Counted from the stretch's first letter, positions 6,624-21,304 are shown. The stretch: 64,000 nucleotides of DNA from a virus (IMGVR_UViG_3300010413_002638:48805-112804); one strand, 5' to 3'. Made by a program: numbers and translations. The notes: generated by a model from the sequence alone, not told the origin.

Positions 6624-9368
6624 CTATTTATTCAACTTCTCCATCCTCTCCGCCTCATAGGCTTCTCTCCAACCACGATGGAGTAGTTTAATAATTACCT
6701 CACCTCGCACCAAAGTGAAGGTATTGCGCATCTCATCATATTCGACAAAGAGCTGCACACCAGTACCAGGTTGCTGGATCATCTCTAAATCCTGCATCAA
6801 CAGAGCCTTGCCAAAAAGCATCACCAGAGTGCTTTGGATGCCGTCACTAATCACCAGTCTACCGTATGGCTTGTTGTTCTTTGATTCCGCCATTTCAAAA
6901 CCTATGATAACGCCCTCCAATTTGGCCTCACCATTCTTAACGGAATTCACTTTCGCATCTTCAATAGTGCAACCGCCCTCTATCTCATACACATCCAAAG
7001 GAGAGTGTAAATAATATCCAAGATATTCCTTCTCGAACTCAAGCATTTGTTCAATAGTGAAGTCCTCTGGAAACAAGGACATTACTTTCTCGGGAGAATC
7101 ATCAGGGACCGGCTTCCAATTCTCCATTTTGGTCGGAACCTTGCGGCGATTTGGATATGCTTTGAAATATTCATCAATTTGGCGTTGACGTTCTTGTTCG
7201 ATAGCTTCGTCCGTCCAATCATCCAGCAGCAACAATTTTCGCCTTATCTCCTGGCGGAGCTTGGTGATGTCCTTGCCACTGCAATATTTGTACCTGTAAT
7301 ACTCCCAAGTCGCCTGAGCATTTTCGTATCCTGGAAACTGCCTGAATGACCCCAATTTGATGAAACGCTCAAAAACCGACTTGTCCTTCCCTGCCGAGTC
7401 AACCATATCATCCAAAGAAGTAAATTGCCGTTGGCTGGTCCATTTTTTAGCGGCAACATCGCCCAACCCCTTGATGCCAATCAAACCCTGGTTCACCACA
7501 TCGCCCGTAACCGTGAAATTGGCGGTCATATTCTCCACATTGATCGTGTCGAACTTCACGCCACGAGCACGTTGCTTCGGTTGGAACTTGCCACAATACG
7601 TGATATCCGTCGGTTCCCAGTTCTCAGACCGTGCCACGCCCATATAACGAACGAGTTTGTCCGGATGGCAATCGCTCATCACCGCCGCCCAGAACTCTGG
7701 CGCGAAATGAGCCTTCAACCATAAACATCGATGAGCCACCAGGCAATAACTGACAGCATGGCTGCGGTTAAACGCATATCGCCCAAACGTCTCCATCTTC
7801 GTCCACCACTGCTCCGCTTCCTGCTCACCCAAAACACGCGAAGCACCGCGTACCCATTTCTCCTTGATGGGCTTGAGCTTGTGCGTCCATTTCTTGGCTA
7901 CAGCCTTACGAGCCTCCTGAGCCTCCGGAGCCGTAAAACCAGCCACAAGCTGCCAAATAGCCTGCAACTGCTCCTGATAAACAATGACTCCATAAGTGTC
8001 TTTCAAGACACTAAGAATATCCGGATGTAATTTCTTCTGCCAACGGCCTGATGTATCATCGCGGTTTGCCACCGCATCCGGAATAGAGGCCATAGGACCA
8101 GGATGCCCCATGGCATTAAAGAGCATCAGATCCTCAAAATTCCGTACACCATTCTGCAAGATACTCTTGGCCAGATTCGTATCGAATTGAAAAACGCCAT
8201 CTGTCTTCTGGGCGTTTGCCAGTGCAAGCGCGTACTCGTCATTTAGGTCAATATATCGTTTATTCCCGTCGCCGTCGAAGAAATGACCAGCTCGGCTTTG
8301 TGTAGGATCAATATCATCCCATCCGTCCATGTTCTTGCCAAAAGAGATACCACGATTCCGCTCGATCAATTTGCAACATTCGAAGATATACTTGAGCGTC
8401 TTGAGACCGAGAATGTCCCACTTAACATAACCAAACTTGGACAGCTGTGTGTTACGGCCTTCCGTCCACATGCTGATCCAATAGCCACCCTTCTTGCTCT
8501 TAGCCAGCGGAATATTGCCGTAGAGAGAGCGATCGGCAATAATCAGGGCACCAGCGTGCATACCCATATTGCGAACGCGACCTACCAACTTGACCGCATA
8601 ATCAACGATCTTAGGGTGCTTCTTGGCGAATTTGAGGAGATCTTCATGGTCTCGCAGAAGTTTACCAATAGTAATTCCATCTGTGTCAGCAGATCCGCAT
8701 TTAGGGCACTTGGTAGCGTTATGCGAATGCCCACATTCAGTCTCTTCACCGGTATCTGCATTGACGACACGGCCCTTACAATTAGACTTGCCTCCATCCT
8801 TTAGATCATCCACTTCATCCGGCAGATTGGTCGTAAGTGATAAAATCTCCTGTTTATCCAGCCAGCCGGTGGCGGCACAGACATCGATAAGAGCAGATCG
8901 GAATTTGTAGGTTGTCCATGTGCCCACACTGCAGACAGCACCATAACCGTCTTTGATGTGCGCACCGAATTTCCGCATCGCATATTCTTTAATAGGATCA
9001 CGGGCTTCCGGTAGACAATCTATATCAATATCCGGTTGGTCTGGATCTTTGATGAGATCAGGCGGGATAAAGCCCTGGTCGCGCTTGAAATCTGATACCA
9101 CAGAAGCCCGCACGCTATTGAGCATGGGCGTGGTGCGAGCAGCAATCGGGTCTCCTTCGACCATTCCCAACAACCACGGCAACAAAAGAAAGTTGGGATT
9201 AGAAGAGAATTTCTTGCCGTCGTTGTAGAGATTCGTCCAGTAAGTGATAGCACCTTGCTTCTCAACTTCCTGGATTTCGAATTTCAGCCGTTCTTGATAC
9301 TCTTGGCCGTTCTTGCGATTTGCTTTGTTTGCTATCTCTTTGATTTCTTGCCAAGAGACTTCAGCCAC
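6624..9368 (-). CDS. dnaE: DNA polymerase III alpha subunit, C-terminal part (palm, thumb, fingers, HhH, OB)
   Basis: PDIDID, HAGALII, KWDILGLKTL, GVFQF, TYGVIVYQEQ, YAFNRSH and EKEYLGYY motifs. Confidence 0.95.
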   Translation of the reverse strand: MAEVSWQEIKEIANKANRKNGQEYQERLKFEIQEVEKQGAITYWTNLYNDGKKFSSNPNFLLLPWLLGMVEGDPIAARTTPMLNSVRASVVSDFKRDQGFIPPDLIKDPDQPDIDIDCLPEARDPIKEYAMRKFGAHIKDGYGAVCSVGTWTTYKFRSALIDVCAATGWLDKQEILSLTTNLPDEVDDLKDGGKSNCKGRVVNADTGEETECGHSHNATKCPKCGSADTDGITIGKLLRDHEDLLKFAKKHPKIVDYAVKLVGRVRNMGMHAGALIIADRSLYGNIPLAKSKKGGYWISMWTEGRNTQLSKFGYVKWDILGLKTLKYIFECCKLIERNRGISFGKNMDGWDDIDPTQSRAGHFFDGDGNKRYIDLNDEYALALANAQKTDGVFQFDTNLAKSILQNGVRNFEDLMLFNAMGHPGPMASIPDAVANRDDTSGRWQKKLHPDILSVLKDTYGVIVYQEQLQAIWQLVAGFTAPEAQEARKAVAKKWTHKLKPIKEKWVRGASRVLGEQEAEQWWTKMETFGRYAFNRSHAVSYCLVAHRCLWLKAHFAPEFWAAVMSDCHPDKLVRYMGVARSENWEPTDITYCGKFQPKQRARGVKFDTINVENMTANFTVTGDVVNQGLIGIKGLGDVAAKKWTSQRQFTSLDDMVDSAGKDKSVFERFIKLGSFRQFPGYENAQATWEYYRYKYCSGKDITKLRQEIRRKLLLLDDWTDEAIEQERQRQIDEYFKAYPNRRKVPTKMENWKPVPDDSPEKVMSLFPEDFTIEQMLEFEKEYLGYYLHSPLDVYEIEGGCTIEDAKVNSVKNGEAKLEGVIIGFEMAESKNNKPYGRLVISDGIQSTLVMLFGKALLMQDLEMIQQPGTGVQLFVEYDEMRNTFTLVRGEVIIKLLHRGWREAYEAERMEKLNK

Positions 9369-10172: not shown

Positions 10173-10663
10173 AGTAGATTATTCTTGAGATCTCGGATCT
10201 CTGGGTAAGTCGATTTGGTATACGATTGTAGGGCACGCAACGCCTCAGCAATCCCCCGCAAAACAGCATTTTTTGCCGCTCGCTTGTCAGGTAGACCCCG
10301 CGACCTACCCACCAACACCAACAATTGATCGGCGTGAGCCTTCACGTTGTCCGGGAATGTCTCATCCTTGGCTTGGGCCTTTATCATCCGTTCATCAAAA
10401 GAACGCTGTAGCCAAATAGCCAAAGATTCAATCACGTGGAAAGACAAATCAGCACATTCTTTCTCCACCCTGGCGAGGCAAGTTTTTCTATTACCCTCAT
10501 TCTCCAAGGCGTTATACAAGTCATCCACCACATCAAGTAATTTCACCAGGAACACTGACAACTGGGGGCTTGGACCGCCCTGCAGCAGAACATGTGTATA
10601 GATGGAATGCTTCAATTCAGCAAGAGATTCGGTGGCCGACGGGCCAATAGGTGTCTGCATCAT
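10169..10663 (-). CDS. hypothetical helical protein
   Basis: 164 aa ORF translationally coupled on both sides. Confidence 0.7.
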   Translation of the reverse strand: MMQTPIGPSATESLAELKHSIYTHVLLQGGPSPQLSVFLVKLLDVVDDLYNALENEGNRKTCLARVEKECADLSFHVIESLAIWLQRSFDERMIKAQAKDETFPDNVKAHADQLLVLVGRSRGLPDKRAAKNAVLRGIAEALRALQSYTKSTYPEIRDLKNNLL

Positions 10664-12081
10664 TACTCACTCGGCATTTTGACGTTCAACATGTATCCAC
10701 CACGGCTCGACGCCAGGAACCGGTCAAACGAAAGACCCCACAACAATGGGTCCAAGACGTGAATCCCCAGCAGAAAACAAACCAGCGAACCGCCAGCACT
10801 TCCACGTGGACTGAAAGGCCAACCTCGTTTCTTTCCGTACTTAATAAGATCCTTGGTGATAAGGAAGTAGCTAGCGAACCCTTTATCAATAAACCGGTTC
10901 AATTCAATACTAGCCTGTTCCCTATAAGTCACCTCGCGGCCATCGATGAGAAATTTGGTCTTACATTTCTCCAATCCACGCCACCGCAATTCCTTAATGA
11001 CCAGTTTACACAACTCATTATCAGCATCAGATATCTCGGGATATTTGGGAGCAGTATCAACACCAAATTTCTCACAGCGATCGGCAACCATTAGGGTATT
11101 ATCGCACAATTGATCAAAAGTTCGGTTGTCTATGCCGTTACTGTAATTGCCGTTACGGAACGTGGCCCATAATTCTGCCCGCGACTTCATGAATTGTTCA
11201 TCACTATTGACATGGAATAGATCCGGCGAATCGATGGTTGTTTCCTGGGCGACAGCCATCATCAGTTTCTGCAATATGAAGTCAGCTCGATTGAGATAAT
11301 GACAATCATTGGTGAGTACAACAGGAATCTTGAAGAAATCAGCGATAGATATCAACTCACGAAATACCTTATCATCCTCTGGGATGCCAGGCATTTGAAC
11401 TTCAAGATAATAGTCCTGGCCGAATGCTTTCTTGAACTTCTTGATGTATTCGACAGCCGCGTCTAATCTGGCCTTCTTTTTCCGCTCGACCAGAACCTTT
11501 CCTTCTTTGTCGGTGAGCTGTTTATAGCGAAGCTCATGAGACACTGGCCCATTTAGACACCCAGACAACACTATGAGTCCTTCGCGAAACTCGCAAAGTT
11601 TATCGAACCAGATCCTATTGTATTGTGTACTACCCATACCGAATAGACCGGTCTCATAAGCTTGGGTTGTCAATCTTACGAGATTATGAAATCCGGTTTC
11701 ATTCTTGCAAAGGACCGTCAAATGTCTATTGCGCCTGATACGGCTGGAAGTGTCTGGATTTTCTTCCTGCCATTCTTTCGAGCGAAATTTGATTCCTTTT
11801 GCCACCAGTTCTTGTCGTAATGGTTCGAAGTCATTGAAGTAAATTTCGCAACCTGGGATGTACTTCAAGCCGTGCTTCTTGAAGGCGAGATACATGTCAG
11901 GCACGGAAGCCATATGGCCGTGCTCTGTAGCACTCATAGCGGAGTAGCCGCGAGCTGCACATTGCTCGGCATACTGTTCTGGCGTAGCCACGCCGTCCAG
12001 AGCTGAAAAGACGGTGTGATTGTGCAGGTGCACGAAATCAGAAGGGCCGGTATATTCTTCAGGACTGAATTCTTCTGACAT
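10663..12081 (-). CDS. dnaE: DNA polymerase III alpha subunit, N-terminal part (PHP domain plus start of palm)
   Basis: FVHLHNHT, TEHG, GCEIY, RHL, LSGC, TNDCHY and RGSAGGSLVCFLLGI motifs. Confidence 0.95.
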   Translation of the reverse strand: MSEEFSPEEYTGPSDFVHLHNHTVFSALDGVATPEQYAEQCAARGYSAMSATEHGHMASVPDMYLAFKKHGLKYIPGCEIYFNDFEPLRQELVAKGIKFRSKEWQEENPDTSSRIRRNRHLTVLCKNETGFHNLVRLTTQAYETGLFGMGSTQYNRIWFDKLCEFREGLIVLSGCLNGPVSHELRYKQLTDKEGKVLVERKKKARLDAAVEYIKKFKKAFGQDYYLEVQMPGIPEDDKVFRELISIADFFKIPVVLTNDCHYLNRADFILQKLMMAVAQETTIDSPDLFHVNSDEQFMKSRAELWATFRNGNYSNGIDNRTFDQLCDNTLMVADRCEKFGVDTAPKYPEISDADNELCKLVIKELRWRGLEKCKTKFLIDGREVTYREQASIELNRFIDKGFASYFLITKDLIKYGKKRGWPFSPRGSAGGSLVCFLLGIHVLDPLLWGLSFDRFLASSRGGYMLNVKMPSE

Positions 12082-12724
12082 TAGCCACTATTTCGTCGTT
12101 GATGTTGTACAATGACTGACTTCTAAACACTGTCTGGCACACTCGCTCGATCAACTCATTATCTAGGTCAGTCGTATCCGGGTAATTAGGCGTCGTTGGT
12201 TGTCTTCCCAAGCGGCGTATAAATCCTTCAAATATCGCTGCCGCGCTAGGCATATTAAAATTACAAGTTTGCCAAAATCTGCATAAGTAATTATATAGCC
12301 TATTTCTGCCACCTTTCTTCAATAACCTGTCGAAGTTATCAACAATAGATTTTACGTGGATCTCTTCTATTTTGGCGGGATCGATCAACTCGATAAAGTA
12401 AGACCTGGCGTAATCGTTGGTGAGATCTGTTTGAAAGATCGTTCGCCTGGACTCTATTACGGCTTGGGTAATTAATTGGCGAACGTTTTCTGCTGAAAGC
12501 CCACATGATAACCCAACGGAAAACGCCTTACTCATATCGCGTAGGCCACGCAACGAATGCCTTTGATCGGTCTTTGCTTGCAACCAATTATCGAGATTCG
12601 GCACCACCATCTTATGCAACGTATTATCAAATAGTTCTGGTAGATTCGCACTGTCGCGGAAATAAAATAGCTCTCCATCGATCTCGAAAACAGTCACCGT
12701 TTTCTCAACATATCTAATAATCAT
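12059..12724 (-). CDS. hypothetical protein
   Basis: ORF of about 220 aa leading the minus-strand replication gene run; start uncertain. Confidence 0.6.
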   Translation of the reverse strand: MIIRYVEKTVTVFEIDGELFYFRDSANLPELFDNTLHKMVVPNLDNWLQAKTDQRHSLRGLRDMSKAFSVGLSCGLSAENVRQLITQAVIESRRTIFQTDLTNDYARSYFIELIDPAKIEEIHVKSIVDNFDRLLKKGGRNRLYNYLCRFWQTCNFNMPSAAAIFEGFIRRLGRQPTTPNYPDTTDLDNELIERVCQTVFRSQSLYNINDEIVANVRRIQS

Positions 12725-13682
12725 GTTATCTAACAATCGAAGAAGAGAAATAAGCGTCGTTGTCGTTTGCGGCGACCAATACCACGATTATCTCCGAACA
12801 GCTATAGACAGCATTCGAAGACAAACCATTCAGCCAGATGAGATAATAATAGTATACGACAACACCGAGCCAAGTATGACCTCCTACCCATATCTACAAA
12901 CACACAATGACAACCCTCTCGCCAGCCGCAGGGACGGATTTGCCGCTACCAGCAAAGAAACAGTCTTTTTCCTAGACGCCGACGACTATATCAGCGATGA
13001 TTATATCGGTTCTGGTCTGGCCCTCAAAACCGACAACAACATAGTCTACTCAGACGTCCGCCTCTTCGGAACAATGAACAAAACATTACGTTATTCACCC
13101 AAATTCATGTCCCAAGAAAACTATCTGCATGTAGCCAGTCTCATCAGTCGCGACGCAATCGACATAGCAGACGCCTTCAACCCAATACCACCAGTCGATT
13201 GCCATGAAGACTGGGTATTCTGGCGGCGATTATTAAAAGCCGGATGCCCAACTATCAAACAACCTGGCATCCACTACCACCGAGAACATGAACACAACCG
13301 TTCCAAGAAAATCGTGCAACACGAATTTCCCATAGCCAAGGGAATCTGGTGTGATACTATTGGCTTCGTTCGCGCGGACGGCCAAGAACACGAAGAGCAA
13401 GTCTTACAACAATGGCCACCAGAACAGAGAGAATTATACACCATAGATAACCCGGATATCAGAGCAATCAACAAAATCCTCCAGAGAACAAACGCTGACT
13501 ATTTGTTATTCTATAGCACAAAAGACCTACAAATGATTAGAATGATGGCAGATCTAGACTACGGTGTGGCAATTGTCCAAGCCCGTGATTTACCAATGTG
13601 GTATGGAACACTCATCGTCGTTGACCTACTCAAAGCTCAATCACCGTCTTACACGTTTAACGGCAAATCGATACTGGTCTAA
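12723..13682 (+). CDS. glycosyltransferase family 2
   Basis: YLRTAIDSIRRQT, FLDADD and HEDW motifs. Confidence 0.85.
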   Translation: MLSNNRRREISVVVVCGDQYHDYLRTAIDSIRRQTIQPDEIIIVYDNTEPSMTSYPYLQTHNDNPLASRRDGFAATSKETVFFLDADDYISDDYIGSGLALKTDNNIVYSDVRLFGTMNKTLRYSPKFMSQENYLHVASLISRDAIDIADAFNPIPPVDCHEDWVFWRRLLKAGCPTIKQPGIHYHREHEHNRSKKIVQHEFPIAKGIWCDTIGFVRADGQEHEEQVLQQWPPEQRELYTIDNPDIRAINKILQRTNADYLLFYSTKDLQMIRMMADLDYGVAIVQARDLPMWYGTLIVVDLLKAQSPSYTFNGKSILV

Positions 13683-14428
13683 TGGTAAACAAGATTTCCA
13701 TATTGATGGCTATCTATAACTGTGCAGATTATCTGCCAGCGTCCATTGAAAGCATATTAGGCCAAACAGTAGGAGATTTCGAATTTATCATCATAGACGA
13801 CGGCTCAGACGAATCGGTAATGGAGATATTAGAATGGTACAACGACAGGCGTATCAAAATTATCAGAGTCGATGAGAATGTCGGCTTGACCCGTTGCCTA
13901 AACATCGCCTTAGACGTAGCTACTGGCAATATATTCGCACGTCATGACGGGGATGATATTGCATTACCAGACAGACTGGCAATAGAATTACCATTACTTA
14001 CTGGGCGTACCGGTCTAGTGAGCTGCTGGGCGGAGCCCATCAACGAAAATGGAGAGATAATCAAAGACGACTGGACAGAGCAAGAATTGCAAAGAGAAGC
14101 TGATGAAGTAGAAAAGTTGATGTCCCAAACAAACTGCGTGTTGGCCCCAGGAGCAATATTCACCAGAGAAGTGTTCGAACGAATAGGATATTTCGATCCA
14201 GAAGTCAGATATGCACAAGATTATAATTACTGGTTGCGATTGATGAACGAGTTTACCATCAACATCGTGCCAGAGGTATTAGTGCAAAAGAGAGTCCATA
14301 AAGAATCAGTGTGGGGCCAAGAAGAAGAGCACGACCAAGATTGGCGACAAATAGCCAAAGACAGAGCCACAACAGATCCAACGATTTTTCAAGTAGAGCA
14401 TCCCCCATTTCATTGGAGAAGGCATTGA
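13682..14428 (+). CDS. glycosyltransferase family 2
   Basis: ISILMAIYN, IIDDGS, ARHDGDD and AQDYNYWLR motifs. Confidence 0.92.
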   Translation: MVNKISILMAIYNCADYLPASIESILGQTVGDFEFIIIDDGSDESVMEILEWYNDRRIKIIRVDENVGLTRCLNIALDVATGNIFARHDGDDIALPDRLAIELPLLTGRTGLVSCWAEPINENGEIIKDDWTEQELQREADEVEKLMSQTNCVLAPGAIFTREVFERIGYFDPEVRYAQDYNYWLRLMNEFTINIVPEVLVQKRVHKESVWGQEEEHDQDWRQIAKDRATTDPTIFQVEHPPFHWRRH

Positions 14429-15618
14429 AACTTTCACATTACGTAGTTCGTACTTTTTCTGGTGAACAAGATATACTTTTTCATACAGTCACAAGAAAAG
14501 TGCTGCTAGCAGATGCCGATGAGAAAACATTGGCAGAGAATTTCTTTTATGCTGGCCAAGAGAAACAAGCTGTCCTGGCGAAACTCGCACAACCACCGGA
14601 TGGTTGGTTTCACTTTCATTTATCTCCGACCTGGGAATGCAACCTTCGCTGTACACATTGCATGGTACGACATAGACTCATCAAAGATGACACCAATATT
14701 CTAGAGGTCGCACCAGTAATTCGTTTAGCACAACAAAGCAAACAACTATTCGACGTACGTCGAATGTCAGTGAACTTCTTCGGTGGCGAAAGCATGCTAG
14801 CCATCGATAAATGCAACGAAATCGTCGATGCGTTCAACGGGATTGATCTTGAACTGATGCACTTTCAGTTGTTCACGAACCTCACCATGGAACTAACCGA
14901 CAAGCATCTTGAATTCTTCCGGCAAGTCGATAGTATCGGCGTCAGCATAGACGGTCTGGAACAGATACACAATGCTCAGCGTATGCCGATTTCTCCCATG
15001 AATCCATTCGAAAAAACGATGCAAAATCTCAAAATATTGGTCAAGCAAGGCTGGAAAGAAAAAATCTCGATACAAGCCTGCCTAAGCGACCAACATAATA
15101 CACTAGATAATAGAGTTTCGTTCTACAGAACCATTCTGCAATTTGGCATTCGTCCACATAGGATTATGATTGGAACTATCGCTCCAACCAAGACCAATCC
15201 CACACCAGGCGACCATTACAAAAAAGGATTGCATCAAGTCAAATTGACTGACGGATTCTGTTGTAAGTATAGATTAAATAATCTGGTCATCGACAACACT
15301 GGGAATGTCTTCTCAGATTATTATTCATACACCAAAATAGGCACAGTGAATGATGACTTATTGATGCTATTGGGTGAAAAAGAAAAAATTACATTAGAAA
15401 CAGCCCCGGCTCTAAATGATCCAAAATGTCAGAAATGCCCAGCACTAGGCTTTTGTTGGGGCGGTTGCTCTGTCACAGAAAATGATGCACCACTTAGTAC
15501 ATATTGTAACCAAGACGGCATCATAGCTGTTATTGAAGAGGCAGCCAAGCTCGGCCAATTTAAGTTAGGAAATGAAAATGGCCTCCCCATCGACAGCCAA
15601 ACCCACTTATTTCACTGA
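14425..15618 (+). CDS. radical SAM/SPASM-domain protein, putative peptide maturase
   Basis: TTG start at 14425 after GGAGAAGG; CNLRCTHC, FFGGE, VSIDG and SPASM-type CQKCPALGFCWGGC...C motifs. Confidence 0.9.
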   Translation: MKLSHYVVRTFSGEQDILFHTVTRKVLLADADEKTLAENFFYAGQEKQAVLAKLAQPPDGWFHFHLSPTWECNLRCTHCMVRHRLIKDDTNILEVAPVIRLAQQSKQLFDVRRMSVNFFGGESMLAIDKCNEIVDAFNGIDLELMHFQLFTNLTMELTDKHLEFFRQVDSIGVSIDGLEQIHNAQRMPISPMNPFEKTMQNLKILVKQGWKEKISIQACLSDQHNTLDNRVSFYRTILQFGIRPHRIMIGTIAPTKTNPTPGDHYKKGLHQVKLTDGFCCKYRLNNLVIDNTGNVFSDYYSYTKIGTVNDDLLMLLGEKEKITLETAPALNDPKCQKCPALGFCWGGCSVTENDAPLSTYCNQDGIIAVIEEAAKLGQFKLGNENGLPIDSQTHLFH

Positions 15619-15850
15619 ACAAGAGAGAAAAGAGCTTGGGCTTCCCGATGACCACGATATAGCCGTACTGTTAGACAGATGTAAGGCAAATGATTTATCC
15701 CCATTTGCTGCCGCCACCAACTCGCTGGGATATGATGTAACCGGCGAGCCGTACTGTTATTGTGGTTTCTGCAAACCAGAGTCCGGGATCAACGGAACCT
15801 GTAATGGCCCCTCGGCGTCTTTATCTGATACAATACCAATCCCACTCTAG
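15572..15850 (+). CDS. Cys-rich small protein, putative RiPP precursor 1
   Basis: 92 aa with core YCYCGFCKPESGINGTC; RBS AGGA; directly follows the rSAM gene; tandem paralog. Confidence 0.75.
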   Translation: MKMASPSTAKPTYFTEQERKELGLPDDHDIAVLLDRCKANDLSPFAAATNSLGYDVTGEPYCYCGFCKPESGINGTCNGPSASLSDTIPIPL

Positions 15851-15858
15851 GAAAGAAA

Positions 15859-16134
15859 ATGACACAATCCCCTACAATCGGCAGGCCCACCTATTTCACT
15901 GAACAAGAGAGAAAAGAGCTTGGACTCCCTGACGACCAAGATATCGCCATAATGTTAGACAGATGCAAAGCAAAGGATTTGTCTCCCTTTGCCGCAGCTA
16001 CTAATTCACTAGGGTATGACGTAACCGGCGAGCCATATTGTTATTGTGGCTTCTGCAAACCAGAATCTGGAATCAACGGAACCTGTGATGGTCCTTCGGC
16101 ATCATTATCACATTCAGTAGCCGGGCCAGAATAA
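15859..16134 (+). CDS. Cys-rich small protein, putative RiPP precursor 2
   Basis: 91 aa; 70/75 aa identical to precursor 1 over the shared region. Confidence 0.75.
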   Translation: MTQSPTIGRPTYFTEQERKELGLPDDQDIAIMLDRCKAKDLSPFAAATNSLGYDVTGEPYCYCGFCKPESGINGTCDGPSASLSHSVAGPE

Positions 16135-16146
16135 AAAGTACACCCT

Positions 16147-17274
16147 GTGATACATTCCTATCTGGAATATTATTCTCATCCGACAATCAAAAATGCCAAA
16201 CGATTGTGGGAATCTATCAGAGAATATGACTATCACGAACCACTAGATGACCTAATCGCTGCTCGCAAAGTCATCAAGCCCAAACTACACTTAGCCGATC
16301 GCTACCTGTTCAGCAACGGAACAGTAGGCAAAACAAGAGCATACCTGATAGGACCGCACGCGGACTTCTGGATCAAACAAATAGAAGACTTCGTAAAATA
16401 TCGAACCACCAGATATATCAATATCCTAGATCTATTATCCTTCAACCACCACAAAATAGCTCGAATGCCCGAGCCGATCACAGACGACTCATATTATTAT
16501 ATTGCTGCAGCAGACTACCGCCAAATTGACAAATTCATACAGGAATTAGCAAGACTCGGTAATTACGGCTTCAACGCCGCGCCGAACACATGGTTATATC
16601 TGCTCAGCCTACCGGCATTTCGAGAATTTCTATCATCCCGCCAGATAATATGCTTATCGACCGGCTGGGACGGATTCTATAAACAACCGCCAACCAATAT
16701 CCATATGAACGATAATATGGTAAATTGGACAACCGGGATGAATTTCTATACCTGCCAGTACGGAACCAGACACTACCTACAAACATTCGCAATCGCACCA
16801 GAAGGCATCGTCAATCTGTTAAACCTGGCTTGCCAACCAGTCTTGCCAGTCGATGATCTCATGCAGATCTCTCCGGTAGTCAAACGTTGTCAGTGTGGAA
16901 GAAATTTTCGCGAAATCTCTTATTTTCCGCATTATATCTGGTTGCCCAAATCATCTGACGGTGAAATAATTTATGATCTACAGCTGGCCGACCACTTTAA
17001 AGCTTCTTATCTGAACTTACAATTTATTCAGATCGGCCAAACAATTGATGTCTTGTATATCTCTAACAGTAACAACGACCTGTTAGAACATGACCAAAAC
17101 ATCATCACCACATTTTTCGAAAGCCATGGATTGGAGACGGTGTTCAAACGTGATAAATATCGTAGTATCAATCGCAAGTACCATGTTTTTCTTAGAATAG
17201 CAGCACCAACCACTTACAAATCCTGGAATCTGGTATGCACCAATTCGCAACCGTCATCACAGCCGACCATATAG
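16147..17274 (+). CDS. phenylacetate-CoA ligase (PaaK)-like adenylate-forming protein, divergent
   Basis: FSNGTVGKTR resembles the TSGTTG.P phosphate loop; DDL..I...RCQCGR resembles the PaaK C-terminal motif. Confidence 0.55.
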   Translation: MIHSYLEYYSHPTIKNAKRLWESIREYDYHEPLDDLIAARKVIKPKLHLADRYLFSNGTVGKTRAYLIGPHADFWIKQIEDFVKYRTTRYINILDLLSFNHHKIARMPEPITDDSYYYIAAADYRQIDKFIQELARLGNYGFNAAPNTWLYLLSLPAFREFLSSRQIICLSTGWDGFYKQPPTNIHMNDNMVNWTTGMNFYTCQYGTRHYLQTFAIAPEGIVNLLNLACQPVLPVDDLMQISPVVKRCQCGRNFREISYFPHYIWLPKSSDGEIIYDLQLADHFKASYLNLQFIQIGQTIDVLYISNSNNDLLEHDQNIITTFFESHGLETVFKRDKYRSINRKYHVFLRIAAPTTYKSWNLVCTNSQPSSQPTI

Positions 17275-18119
17275 ACAAGACGTTGGTGCTTCTTGAATCG
17301 CTCCGAACATTCAATGAAGCCGAATTACACGCACTAGTCATCGACTATAACCCGCGTATAATGGCCAGCGTCGATTTCGACCACTTGTACGTGCATGATC
17401 TCCAAGAATTACTAGGAGATAGAGATCACGGCGTTGTTGCCAGAATCATCGCCAACAAATATGCAAACTTGCGCGACGAATTACGCTGGGCACTCAAAGC
17501 CCCATTCATCAAAAGTTTACGCACAGAACATCCAGAAATCTGCTACGTCGATTGCGACCTATGCTTTTATGCCGACTACCAATTTCTGATGGATAAATTG
17601 GCTACCTCGGCTATCTTGCTCACGCCGCACTGGCGCGAAATAAACCCGATGACTATAGATTTCCGCTACAACTTCAAGCACGGAATCTATAATGCTGGCT
17701 TCGTCGGCTTCGGGAACGGGTGCGAAGAGATGCTCGATTGGTGGGAAGAAATGTGTGCTATCGAATGCACCAAATCCGATCGAGCCTTCACATACGTTGA
17801 CCAACGATATTTGGATCTGGTACCAATCTATTTCAACAATGTCGAAATCATACAACACTTTGGTTGTAATGTCGCAGCCTGGAACACCTCTTATCTCAAA
17901 CGTGAGGTGGTCGATGGAGAAACCTTAATCCAAGGCGAACCTATTATCTTTATCCATTACTCGCCAATCACCATCGATTATGTCGAGAATGGCAAAGATA
18001 ACGCTCTGTATGATTACTACAACCATTATCGACTAGCACTGCGACAAACCCGCAAGAAGCTGGTAGGATTGGGCCTAAAAGACTGCACATCCAAACCAGT
18101 CGAAGACCAAATATTGTAA
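17235..18119 (+). CDS. GT-A fold glycosyltransferase (GT8-like)
   Basis: ELRWALK, YVDCD, LLTPH, YNAGF, DQRYLD and GCNVAAWN motifs. Confidence 0.8.
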   Translation: MHQFATVITADHIDKTLVLLESLRTFNEAELHALVIDYNPRIMASVDFDHLYVHDLQELLGDRDHGVVARIIANKYANLRDELRWALKAPFIKSLRTEHPEICYVDCDLCFYADYQFLMDKLATSAILLTPHWREINPMTIDFRYNFKHGIYNAGFVGFGNGCEEMLDWWEEMCAIECTKSDRAFTYVDQRYLDLVPIYFNNVEIIQHFGCNVAAWNTSYLKREVVDGETLIQGEPIIFIHYSPITIDYVENGKDNALYDYYNHYRLALRQTRKKLVGLGLKDCTSKPVEDQIL

Positions 18120-19009
18120 TGAACCACTTTTCGACTGTTATAACAGCGAACCACCTCGACAAAACCCTCGTATTGCTGGATTCACTCAACGAATTCGGTG
18201 AAGCAACATTACATACCCTCGTTGTTGATGAAATCCCAAACATCCAATTCACCAATCTAATCATTTACAGCCTCAAAGACCTAGCAAAGAAACAATTGGC
18301 CGCCAGAACACTGGCAATAAAACACGCAGAAGAACAAGATGAATTACGATGGGCACTAAAACCCACATTCATGCTACATCTAATGCAAGAATACACCAAG
18401 CTCTGTCACGTAGACGCAGACATCTGCTTCTATGATGAATACCAATTTCTATTCGACGAATTGAACGATTATCCGGTAATCCTCACGCCGCACTGGCGTC
18501 AGATATATCAATATGGGCCAGATTATATCCATAATTTCAGCGACGGCTTGTACAACGCTGGGTTCATTGGGTTTAGCAGAACGGAACACAAGGGCTCGAA
18601 TATGGTGTCAGGTATGAGAGCACTTCGATGGTGGTCGAAAATCTGTGCTAAAGAATGCACGCAATCATCCGAAAATCACACTTACACCGACCAACGATAC
18701 CTGGACCTATTCCCGATCTACTTCCGAGCTAAAGTATTGCGACATTATGGATGTAATGTGGCTGGTTGGAACGCTAGCTATCTACAACGAACCAAGGAAG
18801 ACGAACACATCCTCGTTCGTGGCATGCCACTTATCTTCATCCACTTCTCTGAAATTACAGAACGCACCATCGCGGACGGTCTAGATGATTTATTACGCGA
18901 GCCATACAGAAAATATCTAATCGCATTACAGAAAAAACGCCAGCAGTTGGCAAAAGCAAAACTCGGCATGTGTATTTCTAAACAACGATATCCTTCTCAG
19001 GCAATCTGA
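18119..19009 (+). CDS. GT-A fold glycosyltransferase, tandem paralog of the upstream gene
   Basis: Same motifs (ELRWALK, HVDAD, YNAGF, DQRYLD). Confidence 0.8.
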   Translation: MNHFSTVITANHLDKTLVLLDSLNEFGEATLHTLVVDEIPNIQFTNLIIYSLKDLAKKQLAARTLAIKHAEEQDELRWALKPTFMLHLMQEYTKLCHVDADICFYDEYQFLFDELNDYPVILTPHWRQIYQYGPDYIHNFSDGLYNAGFIGFSRTEHKGSNMVSGMRALRWWSKICAKECTQSSENHTYTDQRYLDLFPIYFRAKVLRHYGCNVAGWNASYLQRTKEDEHILVRGMPLIFIHFSEITERTIADGLDDLLREPYRKYLIALQKKRQQLAKAKLGMCISKQRYPSQAI

Positions 19010-20324
19010 AAGGGATTTTCTTCAAATAGTAGCTAGGCTTGTCGCGAAAAGCAGAAATAAATGCTGAAAACGACGACATTCCAGCAACAAAAACATCAGC
19101 ATCTATCATGCTTTTAGCTACCCTATATAATCGCGGATAGACCTGATCGCAAATTTTTACGTTTTCACCGACAAAATCACCCACTAGGTCATTCACAGGG
19201 CCTTGCGTGTAATAAACGACATTCAATCGTTTGCCAGGATGGTCATCTCTCACACGATCCAACACCCTATCATACTCGCTCTTGGGAATGATTCTGCCAC
19301 CATTATCATGTAGCCGACCACCACCACGCACATAGACAGCCACATTCAACACACCAGCCGTCGCCTCGAAATCAGACGCAAAAAAATTATAGAAATTAGT
19401 CCGTTTAATAAGAGATTCCCACAACCGCAAATTCTTTTGATACAAACCCGGTAGTGTATCACCCTGCTGCTCAGCTTCGAACAATTGCTTGAAACCAAAA
19501 AACGTTGACCTCCTAAGAATAACGCTAGTTCCAGACGGAAGCCCCCGCAAATATTGTCTCGCCAACGTAAGTGGCATACCCCACCACTTCATCTTCTCAT
19601 CTGGCGTGTAAATGTCGCAAGCTGGTTCCTCAATGCTGTGCTTATCGAAAAAATCCGCGAAATTGAAATAATAGTTAAACATCTCCTCGCCCCATTCATG
19701 CGGATAAAAGCCAGTATAATGATACCCAAGACCAAAAATATCCGCCAAAATAGGGCCACTCACAATATCATTAAATTGATGACCTATGCGGCCCCATTCC
19801 GGGAGCATCGACAACCATATATTCCTAGGGTTCGTAACGGGTGGTAAAAACTCCAACAACTCCGACTCATCAATCACCCTTAACAGTTCGCCCTGGCGCT
19901 GCTCGAATTCTTGTTCATCAACACCCACCATCAGTCTTTTACTATTGGGGCGCTTCAAAACGATCATACCGGGTATGATAGTAACAGAATCGACTTCTTC
20001 CAGCCGCCTAATTTCTAGAATATCCCGCCATCTTTCGACGCACCTGATTATTAGCAAGCACCCATTATCATTTAAGCGCGAGATTGCTGCATGAAAGTTG
20101 TCCTGCACGACCACATCATTCAACAAAATAAGATCATACTTTCTGGCACAACTTGCAAAGAAACTAGAAGCAGAACCGCGAAAATTACCACCGGCTGTCG
20201 GATGAACACCAGTTTTATCTGTCAAACTTATCCGACTAAATATCGCATCGTCACACCCCAGCTCTAAATAGGACGAAAAAGAATATCTGTCGGCTAAAGA
20301 GTTCAATAGTTGGGTTATATTCAT
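18978..20324 (-). CDS. fusion of a degenerate methyltransferase-like domain and a GT11/GT23-like transferase domain
   Basis: N-terminal SYLELGC...YDLILL; C-terminal GRIGHQ, VAVYVRGG and ADVFVAGMSSFS. Confidence 0.6.
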   Translation of the reverse strand: MNITQLLNSLADRYSFSSYLELGCDDAIFSRISLTDKTGVHPTAGGNFRGSASSFFASCARKYDLILLNDVVVQDNFHAAISRLNDNGCLLIIRCVERWRDILEIRRLEEVDSVTIIPGMIVLKRPNSKRLMVGVDEQEFEQRQGELLRVIDESELLEFLPPVTNPRNIWLSMLPEWGRIGHQFNDIVSGPILADIFGLGYHYTGFYPHEWGEEMFNYYFNFADFFDKHSIEEPACDIYTPDEKMKWWGMPLTLARQYLRGLPSGTSVILRRSTFFGFKQLFEAEQQGDTLPGLYQKNLRLWESLIKRTNFYNFFASDFEATAGVLNVAVYVRGGGRLHDNGGRIIPKSEYDRVLDRVRDDHPGKRLNVVYYTQGPVNDLVGDFVGENVKICDQVYPRLYRVAKSMIDADVFVAGMSSFSAFISAFRDKPSYYLKKIPFRLPEKDIVV

Positions 20325-21304
20325 AAGACACTTTTGATGATATCTGCGAATCTTTTTGCTAGATATTTTTTGTCGCGACCTTTCATTGCATTTTGGAAGG
20401 CCAGCACTCGCATTTCATCATATTCAGGATAATTGGCTAGTATGTCAGCTAATATTTTCTCCAAGTCCGAAAAATCAGTCTTACATACAACATACGGAAT
20501 ATCAGGCCAAGAAACGGCAAAAGAAGTATCTGGCTTAATTAGAACCGCTCCCACCAGAGCGGCCTCAAAATCTCGAAAACACGTAATATCATATCCCCAA
20601 GGAGATAAACATACCTTGCTTCGTGTCATTATATCGAAATATTCTTGAAAATCAACAAACGTATCGCTGGATGGTATGCGAACTCTAACATTATATCTAT
20701 CCCGCAAATCACAAACAGTATTCACCGCCACCTGGCGATGAAGGCGAGTTTCGGCATCTGGATAGAATTCGCCTATGTCGCCAAGCATCATAGATATATC
20801 CAATTCCTTTTGTTGATCCAACACAAAAGGTAGTTTCTGATAAATGGGACGTTGGAAATGTTCCCAAGATATAAGATTAGCAAAAACATGTATCTTATCA
20901 GAAAGATGACTCACGCGAGGCTGTCGCATTAACGTTGGTTCGCGATCAGCCATTATTGCAACATGCTTCTTATAGCAGTAAAATTCCTTATCATAGTCCA
21001 ATGGATCTACGAATTTGGACGTCTTCATCATTGCCTTGACATTGTCGCGTATTAAGAATTCGCGTAGATTCCACCAATTGATCTCCGGACCCAAATAGAG
21101 ATCATGTAAAATAGTGGGTTTATCGTCGTCCAGCACGCGACGCACATAATCGACGTCCCGTGAGCCCTGAACTAATTTGATATCGCCTGGGCCGTCCGTA
21201 AAGATGATGCCCAGGGCACGTAATTCATCCTCTAGGCGTAGCCAGCATTGCAAATGAAAATTGAAATATCTAGCACAATTTGGTTTAATATCGAGCTTGA
21301 TCAT
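20321..21304 (-). CDS. GT-B glycosyltransferase (Glyco_trans_1_2-like)
   Basis: SKVCLSPWGY..CFRDFEAALVGAVLIKPD. Confidence 0.75.
   Translation of the reverse strand: MIKLDIKPNCARYFNFHLQCWLRLEDELRALGIIFTDGPGDIKLVQGSRDVDYVRRVLDDDKPTILHDLYLGPEINWWNLREFLIRDNVKAMMKTSKFVDPLDYDKEFYCYKKHVAIMADREPTLMRQPRVSHLSDKIHVFANLISWEHFQRPIYQKLPFVLDQQKELDISMMLGDIGEFYPDAETRLHRQVAVNTVCDLRDRYNVRVRIPSSDTFVDFQEYFDIMTRSKVCLSPWGYDITCFRDFEAALVGAVLIKPDTSFAVSWPDIPYVVCKTDFSDLEKILADILANYPEYDEMRVLAFQNAMKGRDKKYLAKRFADIIKSVL

What the first reader, a model, noticed from the sequence alone, without database searches (positions are those of the whole stretch)
14425..17274. Candidate phage-encoded RiPP system: rSAM/SPASM maturase, two tandem Cys-rich precursors and a PaaK-like ligase
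Seen: a radical SAM enzyme (CNLRCTHC; SPASM-type CxxCxxxxxCxGGC) with a short N-terminal extension. It is followed directly by two ~90-aa ORFs that share an acidic leader-like region and an identical core, EPYCYCGFCKPESGINGTC. A divergent adenylate-forming PaaK-like gene follows. Known: SPASM radical SAM enzymes next to short Cys- or aromatic-rich peptides install thioether (ranthipeptide/sactipeptide) or C-C (cyclophane) crosslinks. Inference: this is an apparently undescribed RiPP class on a phage, possibly further acylated by the ligase or glycosylated by the flanking GT genes. No exporter or protease is adjacent, so the product could be intracellular, released at lysis or virion-bound.
Basis: partly seen in the sequence, partly recalled or inferred. 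Interest (0 to 1): 0.9.

Follow-up and report, generated by a model that had tools for sequence, protein, structure and literature searches.

The report
Huge-phage radical-SAM peptide maturation cassette
A fragment of a very large uncultured phage carries a conserved three-part gene unit (a radical-SAM/SPASM enzyme, one or two small cysteine-bearing peptides, and a new kind of ATP-dependent ligase) that looks like a pathway for a chemically modified peptide that I found described nowhere.

Summary
At 14425-17274 there is a radical SAM/SPASM enzyme, two 90-aa peptide genes (84% identical; dN/dS 0.08) and a 375-aa protein.

The 375-aa protein matches no Pfam, NCBIfam or PHROG family. Its predicted fold is that of PaaK-type adenylate-forming ligases (VIA-align Z 13.4 to PaaK1).

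The same unit of rSAM, Cys peptide and ligase recurs in 8 further loci on uncultured huge-phage or metagenome contigs, at 22-46% identity. A ninth locus has peptide and ligase before its contig ends, and one locus has the ligase alone.

- Seven peptide lineages keep a leader motif, (F/Y/L)T(E/D)xE...P (one further, 5'-cut peptide keeps only its end), and a core CxC motif, and vary elsewhere.
- rSAM and ligase diverge in step (r = 0.83).
- A complex model places the leader on the rSAM (ipSAE 0.74, best control 0.00).
- The nearest solved enzyme is the thioether-forming CteB, not a sulfatase maturase.

I read it as a phage RiPP-like cassette of an undescribed class. The chemistry, the ligase's substrate and the biological role are untested. 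No cultured phage holds the ligase; GTDB genomes showed only one rSAM homologue, and no paper I could search describes the unit. This scan had already found the same kind of cassette on another phage genome (e1-5961784).

The parts
12723..13682 (+). GT2 glycosyltransferase, first gene of the operon (context; lineage-specific accessory)
   Evidence: Pfam Glycos_transf_2 1.9e-11. Syntenic in L003.
13682..14428 (+). GT2 glycosyltransferase, translationally coupled to the rSAM gene (TTGA overlap)
   Evidence: Pfam Glycos_transf_2 1.4e-24. Overlap read. Syntenic in L003.
14425..15618 (+). Radical SAM/SPASM peptide-maturase-type enzyme, 397 aa, TTG start, with a short three-strand/two-helix N-terminal extension
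   Evidence: Pfam PF04055 and NCBIfam TIGR04085 above cutoffs. CteB is the best solved relative by sequence and by fold. AF2 model pLDDT 77.
15578..15850 (+). Precursor-like peptide A, 90 aa (alternative ATG at 15572): leader TYFTEQERKELGLPDD..., core YCYCGFC...C
   Evidence: dN/dS 0.08. Family alignments. Complex model puts the leader on the rSAM.
15859..16134 (+). Precursor-like peptide B, 91 aa, an old paralogue of A (84% identity, dS > 1)
16147..17274 (+). 375-aa member of an unannotated family with a PaaK-type (ANL) adenylate-forming fold. Invariant W194, C203, H209, D237, C248, C250, K344.
   Evidence: No HMM family. Fold matches. Family of 217 representatives. Invariant columns. Sequence bridge to TIGR02304 through a paralogue.
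17235..18119 (+). Probable GT8-like glycosyltransferase (context; overlaps the ligase stop)
   Evidence: Atlas neighbours only, a lead. No Pfam hit. Syntenic in L003.
18119..19009 (+). Paralogue of the previous gene, last gene of the + strand operon
   Evidence: Sequence similarity seen by eye. No Pfam hit.

Best explanation
This is a phage-encoded RiPP-like maturation cassette of an undescribed class. The two peptides are ribosomal precursors. Their N-terminal leader, (F/Y/L)T(E/D)xE...P, is recognised by the radical SAM/SPASM enzyme. That enzyme then uses SAM-derived radical chemistry on the Cys-bearing core around the invariant CxC motif. By analogy with its closest solved relative, CteB, the most likely result is Cys-to-carbon thioether crosslinks. 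The PaaK-fold protein is an ATP-dependent adenylate-forming tailoring enzyme that always travels with the rSAM. It activates a carboxylate, either on the peptide or on a small acid that is then joined to it. In this phage lineage the cassette sits inside one tightly packed operon with four glycosyltransferase-like genes, which may add sugars. No protease or exporter is encoded nearby, so the product may act inside the infected cell or be released at lysis.

Shown: gene content, folds, conservation and co-inheritance of the unit, and purifying selection on the peptides.
Modelled: leader binding to the rSAM.
Inferred: the modification itself, thioether chemistry, the ligase's substrate, glycosylation and the biological role.
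For: Family and fold.
- The rSAM and SPASM domains score above curated cutoffs.
- The best solved relative is the thioether-forming RiPP maturase CteB, by sequence (4.8e-16, against anSME at 1e-8) and by fold.
- The ligase fold is PaaK-like: Foldseek E 5e-7; Z 13.4 with 300 residues aligned, PaaK subfamily above other ANL enzymes.
- A paralogue bridges the family by sequence to the F390-synthetase-related TIGR02304 (1e-8; hhalign 97%).

Conservation of the unit.
- The triad recurs in L003, L005, L006, L010, L008, L115, L114 and L118. L119 holds peptide plus ligase before its contig ends.
- Every family rSAM in four huge-phage records lies next to a family ligase.
- Peptides of seven lineages keep the leader motif and CxC while the rest varies; an eighth, 5'-cut peptide (L114) keeps only the end of the leader.
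- The twin peptides have dN/dS 0.08, and 0.01 in the core.
- rSAM and ligase identity matrices correlate (r = 0.83, Mantel p about 0.001) and their trees are largely congruent. The two cassettes of one phage (G004) fall in different clades for both genes.

Binding model.
- rSAM plus peptide scores ipSAE 0.74 against a best control of 0.00. That mark was reached by 58 of 80 solved complexes and 2 of 110 mismatched pairs. Run agreement is at least 41% and partner pLDDT at least 51.
- The confident contacts are leader residues 10-43 with rSAM residues 199-249 and 271-272.
Against: - No modification has been observed; everything about the chemistry is by analogy.
- The rSAM reaches no equivalog cutoff (PapB 67 of 340 bits, SCIFF maturase 45 of 425).
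- The N-terminal extension is shorter than a canonical RRE, and the model puts the leader on barrel helices instead.
- No protease, exporter or immunity gene is nearby.
- At 57-92 aa with no recognisable cleavage site, the peptides could stay as small modified proteins.
- One locus (L007) has the ligase without any rSAM within 6 kb, next to GT-like genes.
- In the window the cassette is embedded in a glycosyltransferase operon, which also fits a glycan-related role.
- The ligase matches no adenylate-forming HMM directly. Only its P-loop aligns, weakly, to E. coli PaaK.
Confidence: 0.7

Rival explanations
1. The peptide is not a cleaved natural product. It is either a small protein subunit or a scaffold for a cofactor. 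The subunit case would resemble QhpC of quinohaemoprotein amine dehydrogenase, which is cross-linked by the SPASM enzyme QhpD. The scaffold case would resemble PqqA/PQQ or MftA/mycofactocin, with the ligase adding or activating a building block. The product would serve a phage enzyme or process inside the cell.
For: No protease or exporter is nearby. The peptides are long, 57-92 aa. The last 8 codons evolve freely while the rest is constrained. The QhpD family is among the rSAM's partial NCBIfam hits. In mycofactocin a GT2 enzyme decorates the product (my own knowledge), and GT2 genes precede the rSAM here.
Against: No conserved C-terminal residue or motif like those of PqqA or MftA exists; the C-termini differ in every lineage. 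No candidate partner enzyme is conserved with the unit. The peptide models as largely disordered (partner pLDDT 51-53).
Confidence: 0.15
2. The rSAM and the ligase work on a sugar, a nucleotide-sugar, a surface glycan or modified DNA, as part of the surrounding glycosyltransferase and methyltransferase island. The small Cys ORFs would then be unrelated small metal-binding proteins or accessory factors.
For: The window operon is GT2-GT2-rSAM-peptides-ligase-GT-like-GT-like, with overlapping stops and starts. GT or methyltransferase genes flank most related loci. L007 has the ligase beside GT-like genes and no rSAM.
Against: In L005 the unit sits away from any GT. The peptide always sits immediately beside the rSAM, the ligase or both, with a conserved leader. 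The rSAM's nearest relatives are peptide maturases, not sugar-modifying SPASM/twitch enzymes such as BtrN or DesII, which rank lower. The complex model scores well above its controls.
Confidence: 0.1
3. The rSAM is an anaerobic-sulfatase-maturase-like oxidase. It would turn a core Cys into formylglycine, an aldehyde, which the ligase or another enzyme then uses.
For: anSME families are among the partial hits (62 bits). anSME structures align over the core with the lowest rmsd (about 6 A). The core contains C-K-P-E-S, which resembles the first part of the C-x-P-x-R sulfatase motif.
Against: The score is far below the anSME cutoff (62 of 349 bits). CteB is a much better match. The C-x-P motif is absent from the other lineages and the Arg is missing. 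The enzyme has an N-terminal extension, which, from my own knowledge, anSME lacks.
Confidence: 0.05

Closest known systems
SCIFF/CteB and PapB-type thioether (ranthipeptide/sactipeptide) maturase systems
   Same: A SPASM radical SAM enzyme is encoded next to a short Cys-rich peptide with leader and core. CteB is the best solved relative by sequence and fold, and PapB is the best NCBIfam hit.
   Different: Scores are far below the family cutoffs. The N-terminal extension is about 60 aa instead of a full RRE. The peptide family is unrelated to known precursors. An obligatory PaaK-fold ligase partner is present. The hosts are uncultured huge phages.
TIGR04463 / CefB / CcpM-type Cys-rich-peptide radical SAM maturases
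   Same: Same logic of rSAM/SPASM plus Cys-rich peptide. A related phage (G002, L019) carries a full-length TIGR04463-like enzyme (2.3e-57) with a 67-aa Cys-rich peptide and a distant paralogue of the same ligase family.
   Different: The window's rSAM matches these models only over the core (about 50 bits). I found no report of a ligase partner for these families.
PaaK-family adenylate-forming ligases (PaaK1, BT_0428, NatL2/AjiA1, ClxA; F390-synthetase-related TIGR02304)
   Same: Two-domain fold: Z 12-13, about 300 residues aligned. A P-loop-like SNGTxG..R aligns with SSGTTGKP. The invariant Asp, Gly-Arg/Lys and Lys have the spacing of ANL motifs A7, A8 and A10 (D237, R252, K344; my inference).
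   Different: About 60 residues shorter. There is no direct HMM match to AMP-binding, CapK or PaaK models. It has an invariant Cys-His-Cys-Cys set (C203, H209, C248, C250) that I do not know from PaaK enzymes. Its genomic partners are a peptide and an rSAM, not an aromatic-acid pathway.
Phage-borne bacteriocin and RiPP clusters of temperate phages
   Same: A biosynthetic cluster for a ribosomal peptide carried by a phage. A survey found BGCs of phage origin mostly in temperate phages of commensals and pathogens (bioRxiv 10.1101/2020.10.01.322628, abstract).
   Different: Here the carriers are uncultured huge phages (fragments of 92-354 kb). The cassette lies next to replication genes. It has no exporter or immunity gene and belongs to no catalogued RiPP class.

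Membership tests
Radical SAM superfamily (PF04055) | CX3CX2C cluster motif and a profile score above the gathering cutoff | tested here: met
   CNLRCTHC at residues 72-79, invariant in 6 homologues. PF04055 scores 40.9 bits against 29.5.
SPASM-domain radical SAM enzymes (TIGR04085) | C-terminal auxiliary-cluster domain with the CX2CX5CX3C block and further Cys ligands | tested here: met
   TIGR04085 scores 35.4 bits against 27. Conserved C279, C280, C335, C338, C344, C348 and C361. The usual GX4C cysteine is replaced by an adjacent CC pair.
Ranthipeptide/SCIFF maturases (PapB NF047865, TIGR03974) | Whole-protein score above the equivalog cutoff | tested here: not met
   PapB 66.8 bits against 340; TIGR03974 44.7 bits against 425. 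It works like them at best; it is not a member.
Anaerobic sulfatase maturases (TIGR03942) | Equivalog score, and a substrate with the C/S-x-P/A-x-R motif | tested here: not met
   62.4 bits against 349. The peptides lack a conserved C-x-P-x-R. CteB is a far better match than anSME.
RiPP systems (general definition) | A gene-encoded precursor with a recognition (leader) part and a variable core, encoded beside its modifying enzyme | tested here: met
   The leader motif and core CxC are conserved across seven lineages (an eighth, 5'-cut peptide keeps only the end of the leader), and the peptide is adjacent to the rSAM and ligase in 8 further loci. The complex model supports leader binding: ipSAE 0.74 against a best control of 0.00.
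RiPP systems (general definition) | The peptide is actually modified after translation | not testable with these tools
   Needs co-expression and mass spectrometry.
RRE (PqqD-like) leader-binding domain | Winged helix-turn-helix of three strands and three helices that binds the leader | tested here: inconclusive
   The model shows strands at 7-12, 15-20 and 26-28 and helices at 33-38 and 46-54 before the barrel, one helix short. The confident leader contacts in the complex model are on residues 199-249, not on this extension. No RRE-specific HMM was on hand.
ANL / PaaK-type adenylate-forming enzymes | Two-domain ANL fold | tested here: met
   Foldseek prob 1.00, E 5e-7. VIA-align Z 13.4, rmsd 5.1, 300 residues aligned to PaaK1, covering model residues 21-354. 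The model is of medium quality (pLDDT 72.7).
ANL / PaaK-type adenylate-forming enzymes | Sequence membership (AMP-binding, PaaK, CapK or F390 models) and the core motifs A3, A7, A8 and A10 | tested here: inconclusive
   None of 93 members has a relevant Pfam hit, and no NCBIfam hit was found. Only the P-loop aligns to E. coli PaaK (E 0.031). A paralogue links the family to TIGR02304. Assigning D237, R252 and K344 to motifs A7, A8 and A10 rests on spacing only.

The most novel reading that the evidence does not exclude
Huge lytic phages make, inside the infected cell, a new class of radical-SAM-crosslinked CxC peptide. Its second obligatory enzyme is a previously unrecognised branch of ANL ligases, carrying an invariant Cys3His site, that acts directly on the peptide. 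It might form a peptidyl-adenylate, a thioester/thiolactone or an acyl conjugate. The product would be a phage weapon or counter-defence molecule, not a secreted bacteriocin.
Probability: 0.25. Interest if true: 0.85.

Novelty: new variant of a known kind. Interest (0 to 1): 0.7.

Why it matters
Modified ribosomal peptides made by radical SAM enzymes are a large source of antibiotics and signalling molecules. Almost all known ones come from bacteria or their prophages. Here the pathway is a conserved, duplicated, co-evolving unit of uncultured huge phages. It is paired with an ATP-dependent ligase family of about 200 sequence clusters that no database names.

If the peptide is modified as proposed, three things follow:
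- a new RiPP class;
- a new enzyme partnership, SPASM enzyme plus PaaK-fold ligase;
- a new question about what a lytic phage gains from such a molecule when it encodes no exporter.

The unit is small (three or four genes, under 3 kb) and can be tested directly by co-expression in E. coli.

Tried and rejected
Searches that found nothing or could not run:
- A DNA-level search of 6.4 kb against 50,697 phage records found no match.
- tblastn of the ligase against the same records found no match. The rSAM had only a 24% hit, in Agrobacterium phage Atu_ph07.
- Single-sequence scans of viral contigs with the peptide and with the ligase found nothing.
- The first metagenome scan and the GTDB scan with the ligase profile found nothing. 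Each rests on one or two back-translated patterns, so this is weak evidence of absence.
- The HMM of the ligase family against PDB sequences gave only a chance hit.
- The promoter and terminator scan of 12000-19500 was not above its shuffles.
- No tRNA genes lie in the window.
- tblastn with the DnaE fragment gave only about 31-32% hits to actinophage DnaE, which says nothing about the host.

Readings I rejected:
- The small ORFs are stand-alone PqqD-like RRE proteins. They have no Pfam hit, vary from 57 to 92 aa, have a hypervariable Cys core, and model as mostly disordered.
- The small ORFs are chance ORFs. dN/dS is 0.08.
The family keeps an invariant Asp, Lys and Cys/His set across 93 diverse members, which argues for a working enzyme.

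Literature: searches for SPASM or radical SAM together with jumbo or huge phages, adenylate-forming enzymes, F390 synthetase or phenylacetate-CoA ligase found no description of this unit.
Full report
WHAT IS THERE

The window is part of a 112.8-kb IMG/VR viral record that CheckV rates as 32% complete, so it is a fragment of a huge phage. On the + strand, from 12723 to 19009, eight genes are packed with overlapping or nearly touching stops and starts:
- two GT2 glycosyltransferases;
- a 397-aa radical SAM enzyme;
- two peptide genes of 90 and 91 aa;
- a 375-aa protein;
- two paralogous 295-aa proteins whose nearest Atlas clusters are GT8-like, which is a lead only.

A simple promoter and terminator scan found nothing above its shuffles inside this block, which is consistent with a single operon.

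THE ENZYME

The rSAM starts at a TTG at 14425 that overlaps the TGA of the preceding GT2 gene. Four homologues begin at the aligned position.
- It has CNLRCTHC and passes Pfam Radical_SAM (40.9 against 29.5 bits) and the SPASM model TIGR04085 (35.4 against 27 bits).
- Seven C-terminal Cys are conserved, arranged CC...CX2CX5CX3C...C.
- It reaches no equivalog cutoff. The top partial hits are PapB (67 bits), HxsB (63) and anSME (62), followed by many other RiPP maturases.
- Against solved structures, CteB is clearly best by sequence (4.8e-16; ChlB and anSME follow at about 1e-8). CteB is also best by Foldseek on an AF2 model of pLDDT 77, ahead of TigE, anSME and SuiB.
- The first 60 residues model as three strands and two short helices, which is shorter than a canonical RRE.

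THE PEPTIDES

The two copies are 84% identical at protein level, but synonymous sites are saturated (dS 1.18).
- dN/dS is 0.08 overall and 0.01 over the 35-codon core. It is about 1.3 over the last eight codons.
- Both are therefore old, translated and constrained, with a free C-terminal tail. This confirms by computation two first-reader notes (e1-5991340, e1-5991351).
- They match no Pfam, NCBIfam or PHROG family. In 5.8 billion proteins, a profile found only five relatives besides the twin, all from metagenomes.

THE THIRD PROTEIN

No HMM library recognises it. None of 93 family members has a relevant Pfam hit. The family profile finds nothing real among PDB sequences.
- An AF2 model built from eight sequences (pLDDT 72.7) matches PaaK-family ligases: Foldseek E 5e-7, prob 1.00.
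- VIA-align gives Z 13.4, rmsd 5.1 A and 300 aligned residues to PaaK1. The PaaK subfamily (BT_0428, NatL2, AjiA1, HCL, ClxA) scores Z 10-13, above other ANL enzymes at Z 8-9.6.
- Atlas neighbours include AMP-binding, CapK_C and phenylacetate-CoA ligase clusters.
- hhalign against E. coli PaaK aligns only SNGTVGKTR with SSGTTGKPT, weakly.
- A sequence bridge exists. A distant paralogue in a related phage (L019:5864-6967) matches the family profile (hhalign 97%) and also matches NCBIfam TIGR02304, an F390-synthetase-related adenylate-forming protein (1e-8).

A full HMMER pass over 1.84 billion representatives found 217 family members, 185 of them at E <= 1e-10 and nearly all 340-400 aa. Ten that I sampled come only from metagenome sources and carry no informative name; the longest contig is 439 kb.

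Across 93 members the invariant residues are W194, C203, H209, D237, C248, C250 and K344. The spacing D237 - 15 residues - R252 - 92 residues - K344 is what I expect for ANL motifs A7, A8 and A10. That assignment is my inference, not a residue-level structural alignment. The Cys-His-Cys-Cys set suggests a metal site that I do not know from PaaK enzymes.

IS THE UNIT CONSERVED?

Yes. Profile-guided scans recovered the following loci.

| Locus | Source | Arrangement |
|---|---|---|
| L003 | Two near-identical contigs (L003/L004) | Fully syntenic with the window, GT genes included |
| L005 | Same 92.5-kb contig as L003 | Second cassette, beside a methyltransferase and away from GT genes |
| L006 | 340-kb contig | rSAM, 57-aa peptide, ligase |
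| L010 | 354-kb, 98%-complete record | rSAM, 66-aa peptide, ligase |
| L008 | Same 354-kb record | Peptide upstream of the rSAM |
| L115 | Metagenome contig | rSAM, peptide, ligase |
| L114 | Metagenome contig | Peptide, ligase, rSAM |
| L118 | Metagenome contig | Convergent, with a 2OG-Fe(II) oxygenase between rSAM and ligase |
| L119 | Metagenome contig | Peptide and ligase, then the contig ends |

- In four huge-phage records, every rSAM of this family lies next to a ligase of this family.
- The one exception is L007, a 245-kb record rated 48% complete. There the ligase sits among GT-like genes with no rSAM within 6 kb or elsewhere in the record.
- L116 and L117 are too short to judge.
- Peptides of seven lineages keep (F/Y/L)T(E/D)xE...P near the N-terminus (the 5'-cut L114 peptide keeps only its end), and all but one keep CxC in the core (L119 carries its CxC just upstream of the aligned column). 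Nothing else is constant.
- The L008/L118 clade has a different peptide type, with a Lys-rich leader and a GGC...C core, placed upstream of the rSAM.

rSAM and ligase identities track each other across seven complete cassettes (Pearson 0.83, Mantel p about 0.001), and the two trees are largely congruent. The two cassettes of the 354-kb phage fall in different clades for both genes. So the correlation reflects inheritance of the unit, not only the relatedness of the phages. Seven taxa is a small sample.

BINDING MODEL

One complex job was run: the rSAM alignment with the peptide alignment, with three 4Fe-4S clusters and SAM riding along.
- It scored ipSAE 0.74 against a best control of 0.00. 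That mark was reached by 58 of 80 solved complexes and 2 of 110 mismatched pairs.
- The runs share at least 41% of their contacts, and the partner's pLDDT is at least 51.
- The calibration holds only roughly here, because I supplied my own alignments and small molecules.
- The confident contacts are leader residues 10-43 with rSAM residues 199-249 and 271-272. In the single-chain model these are two outer helices and strands of the barrel, not the N-terminal extension.
- The core is not confidently placed, so the model says nothing about which residue is attacked.
- Solved rSAM-leader complexes exist (SuiB, CteB, ChlB). Part of the score may therefore come from likeness to them.

HOW IT MOST LIKELY WORKS

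Shown:
- a SPASM radical SAM enzyme of the peptide-maturase type;
- constrained peptides with a conserved leader and a CxC core;
- a PaaK-fold protein;
- the three inherited as a unit in huge phages.

Modelled:
- the leader docks on the rSAM.

Inferred:
- the rSAM crosslinks or otherwise oxidises the core at CxC, with thioether formation the most likely chemistry by analogy with CteB and PapB;
- the ligase adenylates a carboxylate of the peptide, or of an acid that it then attaches;
- in the window's lineage the operon's glycosyltransferases decorate the product.

The cores of the window, L003, L005 and L006 each hold an N-x-S/T sequon (NGT, NGT, NQT, NST). That could be chance and was not tested. 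With no protease or exporter nearby, the product may keep its leader and act inside the cell.

RIVALS

The rivals are a protein-subunit or cofactor-scaffold role, a glycan- or DNA-modification role in which the peptides are bystanders, and an anSME-like Cys-to-formylglycine oxidation. Each is given with its evidence in its own section. None fits the conserved leader, the strict adjacency and the CteB-like affinity as well as the main reading.

WHAT IS KNOWN

The searchable library holds no paper that describes a SPASM enzyme paired with a PaaK- or F390-type ligase and a peptide. It also holds none on radical SAM peptide maturation in jumbo or huge phages. A 2020 preprint reports that BGCs of phage origin lie mostly in temperate phages (10.1101/2020.10.01.322628, abstract).
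- No cultured phage in INPHARED holds the ligase.
- Among 185,579 GTDB species genomes, the pattern scan found only one close rSAM homologue (34% identity). It lies at the cut end of an Acidobacteria MAG contig and is followed by a bacterial gene.

This scan had already reported the same kind of cassette, in two copies, on another phage genome (e1-5961784). That record probably corresponds to the contig I reached independently as L003/L005. It agrees with my reading but is not independent evidence.

VERDICT

This is a new variant of a known kind: a radical-SAM RiPP-type pathway with a new precursor family, a new ligase family and an unusual carrier. Interest is 0.7, for three reasons: the chemistry and role are unknown, the unit is small, and it is directly testable.

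Noticed in passing
L019:5864-8476 (IMGVR_UViG_3300035208_008180, same record as L006): A second, distant cassette lies 1-2 kb from the first. It has a 67-aa Cys-rich peptide ending CGCSGCCSNMVA, a full-length TIGR04463-like rSAM/SPASM maturase (2.3e-57), and a convergent 367-aa ligase. That ligase hits both the new family profile and the F390-synthetase-related TIGR02304.
   Followed up: partly
L008:4158-4358 and L118:6273-6464 (-): One clade of the cassette uses a different peptide type, with a Lys-rich leader and a GGC...C core, placed upstream of the rSAM instead of between rSAM and ligase.
   Followed up: partly
L118:4476-5036 (-): A 2OG-Fe(II) oxygenase gene sits between the rSAM and the convergent ligase in one metagenome cassette. 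SAM methyltransferases flank the cassettes in L005, L006 and L008. These are candidate tailoring enzymes.
   Followed up: no
window 15578-16134; L003:9730-10008; L005:9775-9987; L006:9822-9995: The peptide cores of four lineages each contain an N-x-S/T sequon (NGT, NGT, NQT, NST) while glycosyltransferase genes lie nearby. This may be chance.
   Followed up: no
window 6624-9368 (-) and 10663-12081 (-): The DnaE-type Pol III alpha appears split into two genes separated by three small genes. The 472-aa PHP-domain part is about 31-32% identical to actinophage DnaE. An earlier first-reader note (e1-5991342) describes the split.
   Followed up: no
window 17235-19009 (+), 18978-21304 (-): There are two paralogous 295-aa GT8-like proteins (Atlas lead). 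On the other strand are a 448-aa protein with no family hit and a 327-aa protein with a weak RXYLT1_C match. Together with the two GT2 genes they form a glycosylation island around the cassette.
   Followed up: partly
L032:1-1041 (Acidobacteria MAG contig JANTFM010000002.1): The only close cellular-genome homologue of the rSAM (34% identity) lies at the cut 5' end of a 42-kb MAG contig. It is followed by a 1110-aa protein that looks bacterial to me by eye (not searched against any family). This may reflect gene transfer, a prophage remnant or mis-binning.
   Followed up: no
L007:5941-7071 (IMGVR_UViG_3300045256_000050): A ligase-family member stands without any rSAM in its 245-kb record, between a weak GT2-like gene and two 340-350-aa proteins with no family hit. 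The ligase family may have a second, rSAM-independent use.
   Followed up: partly
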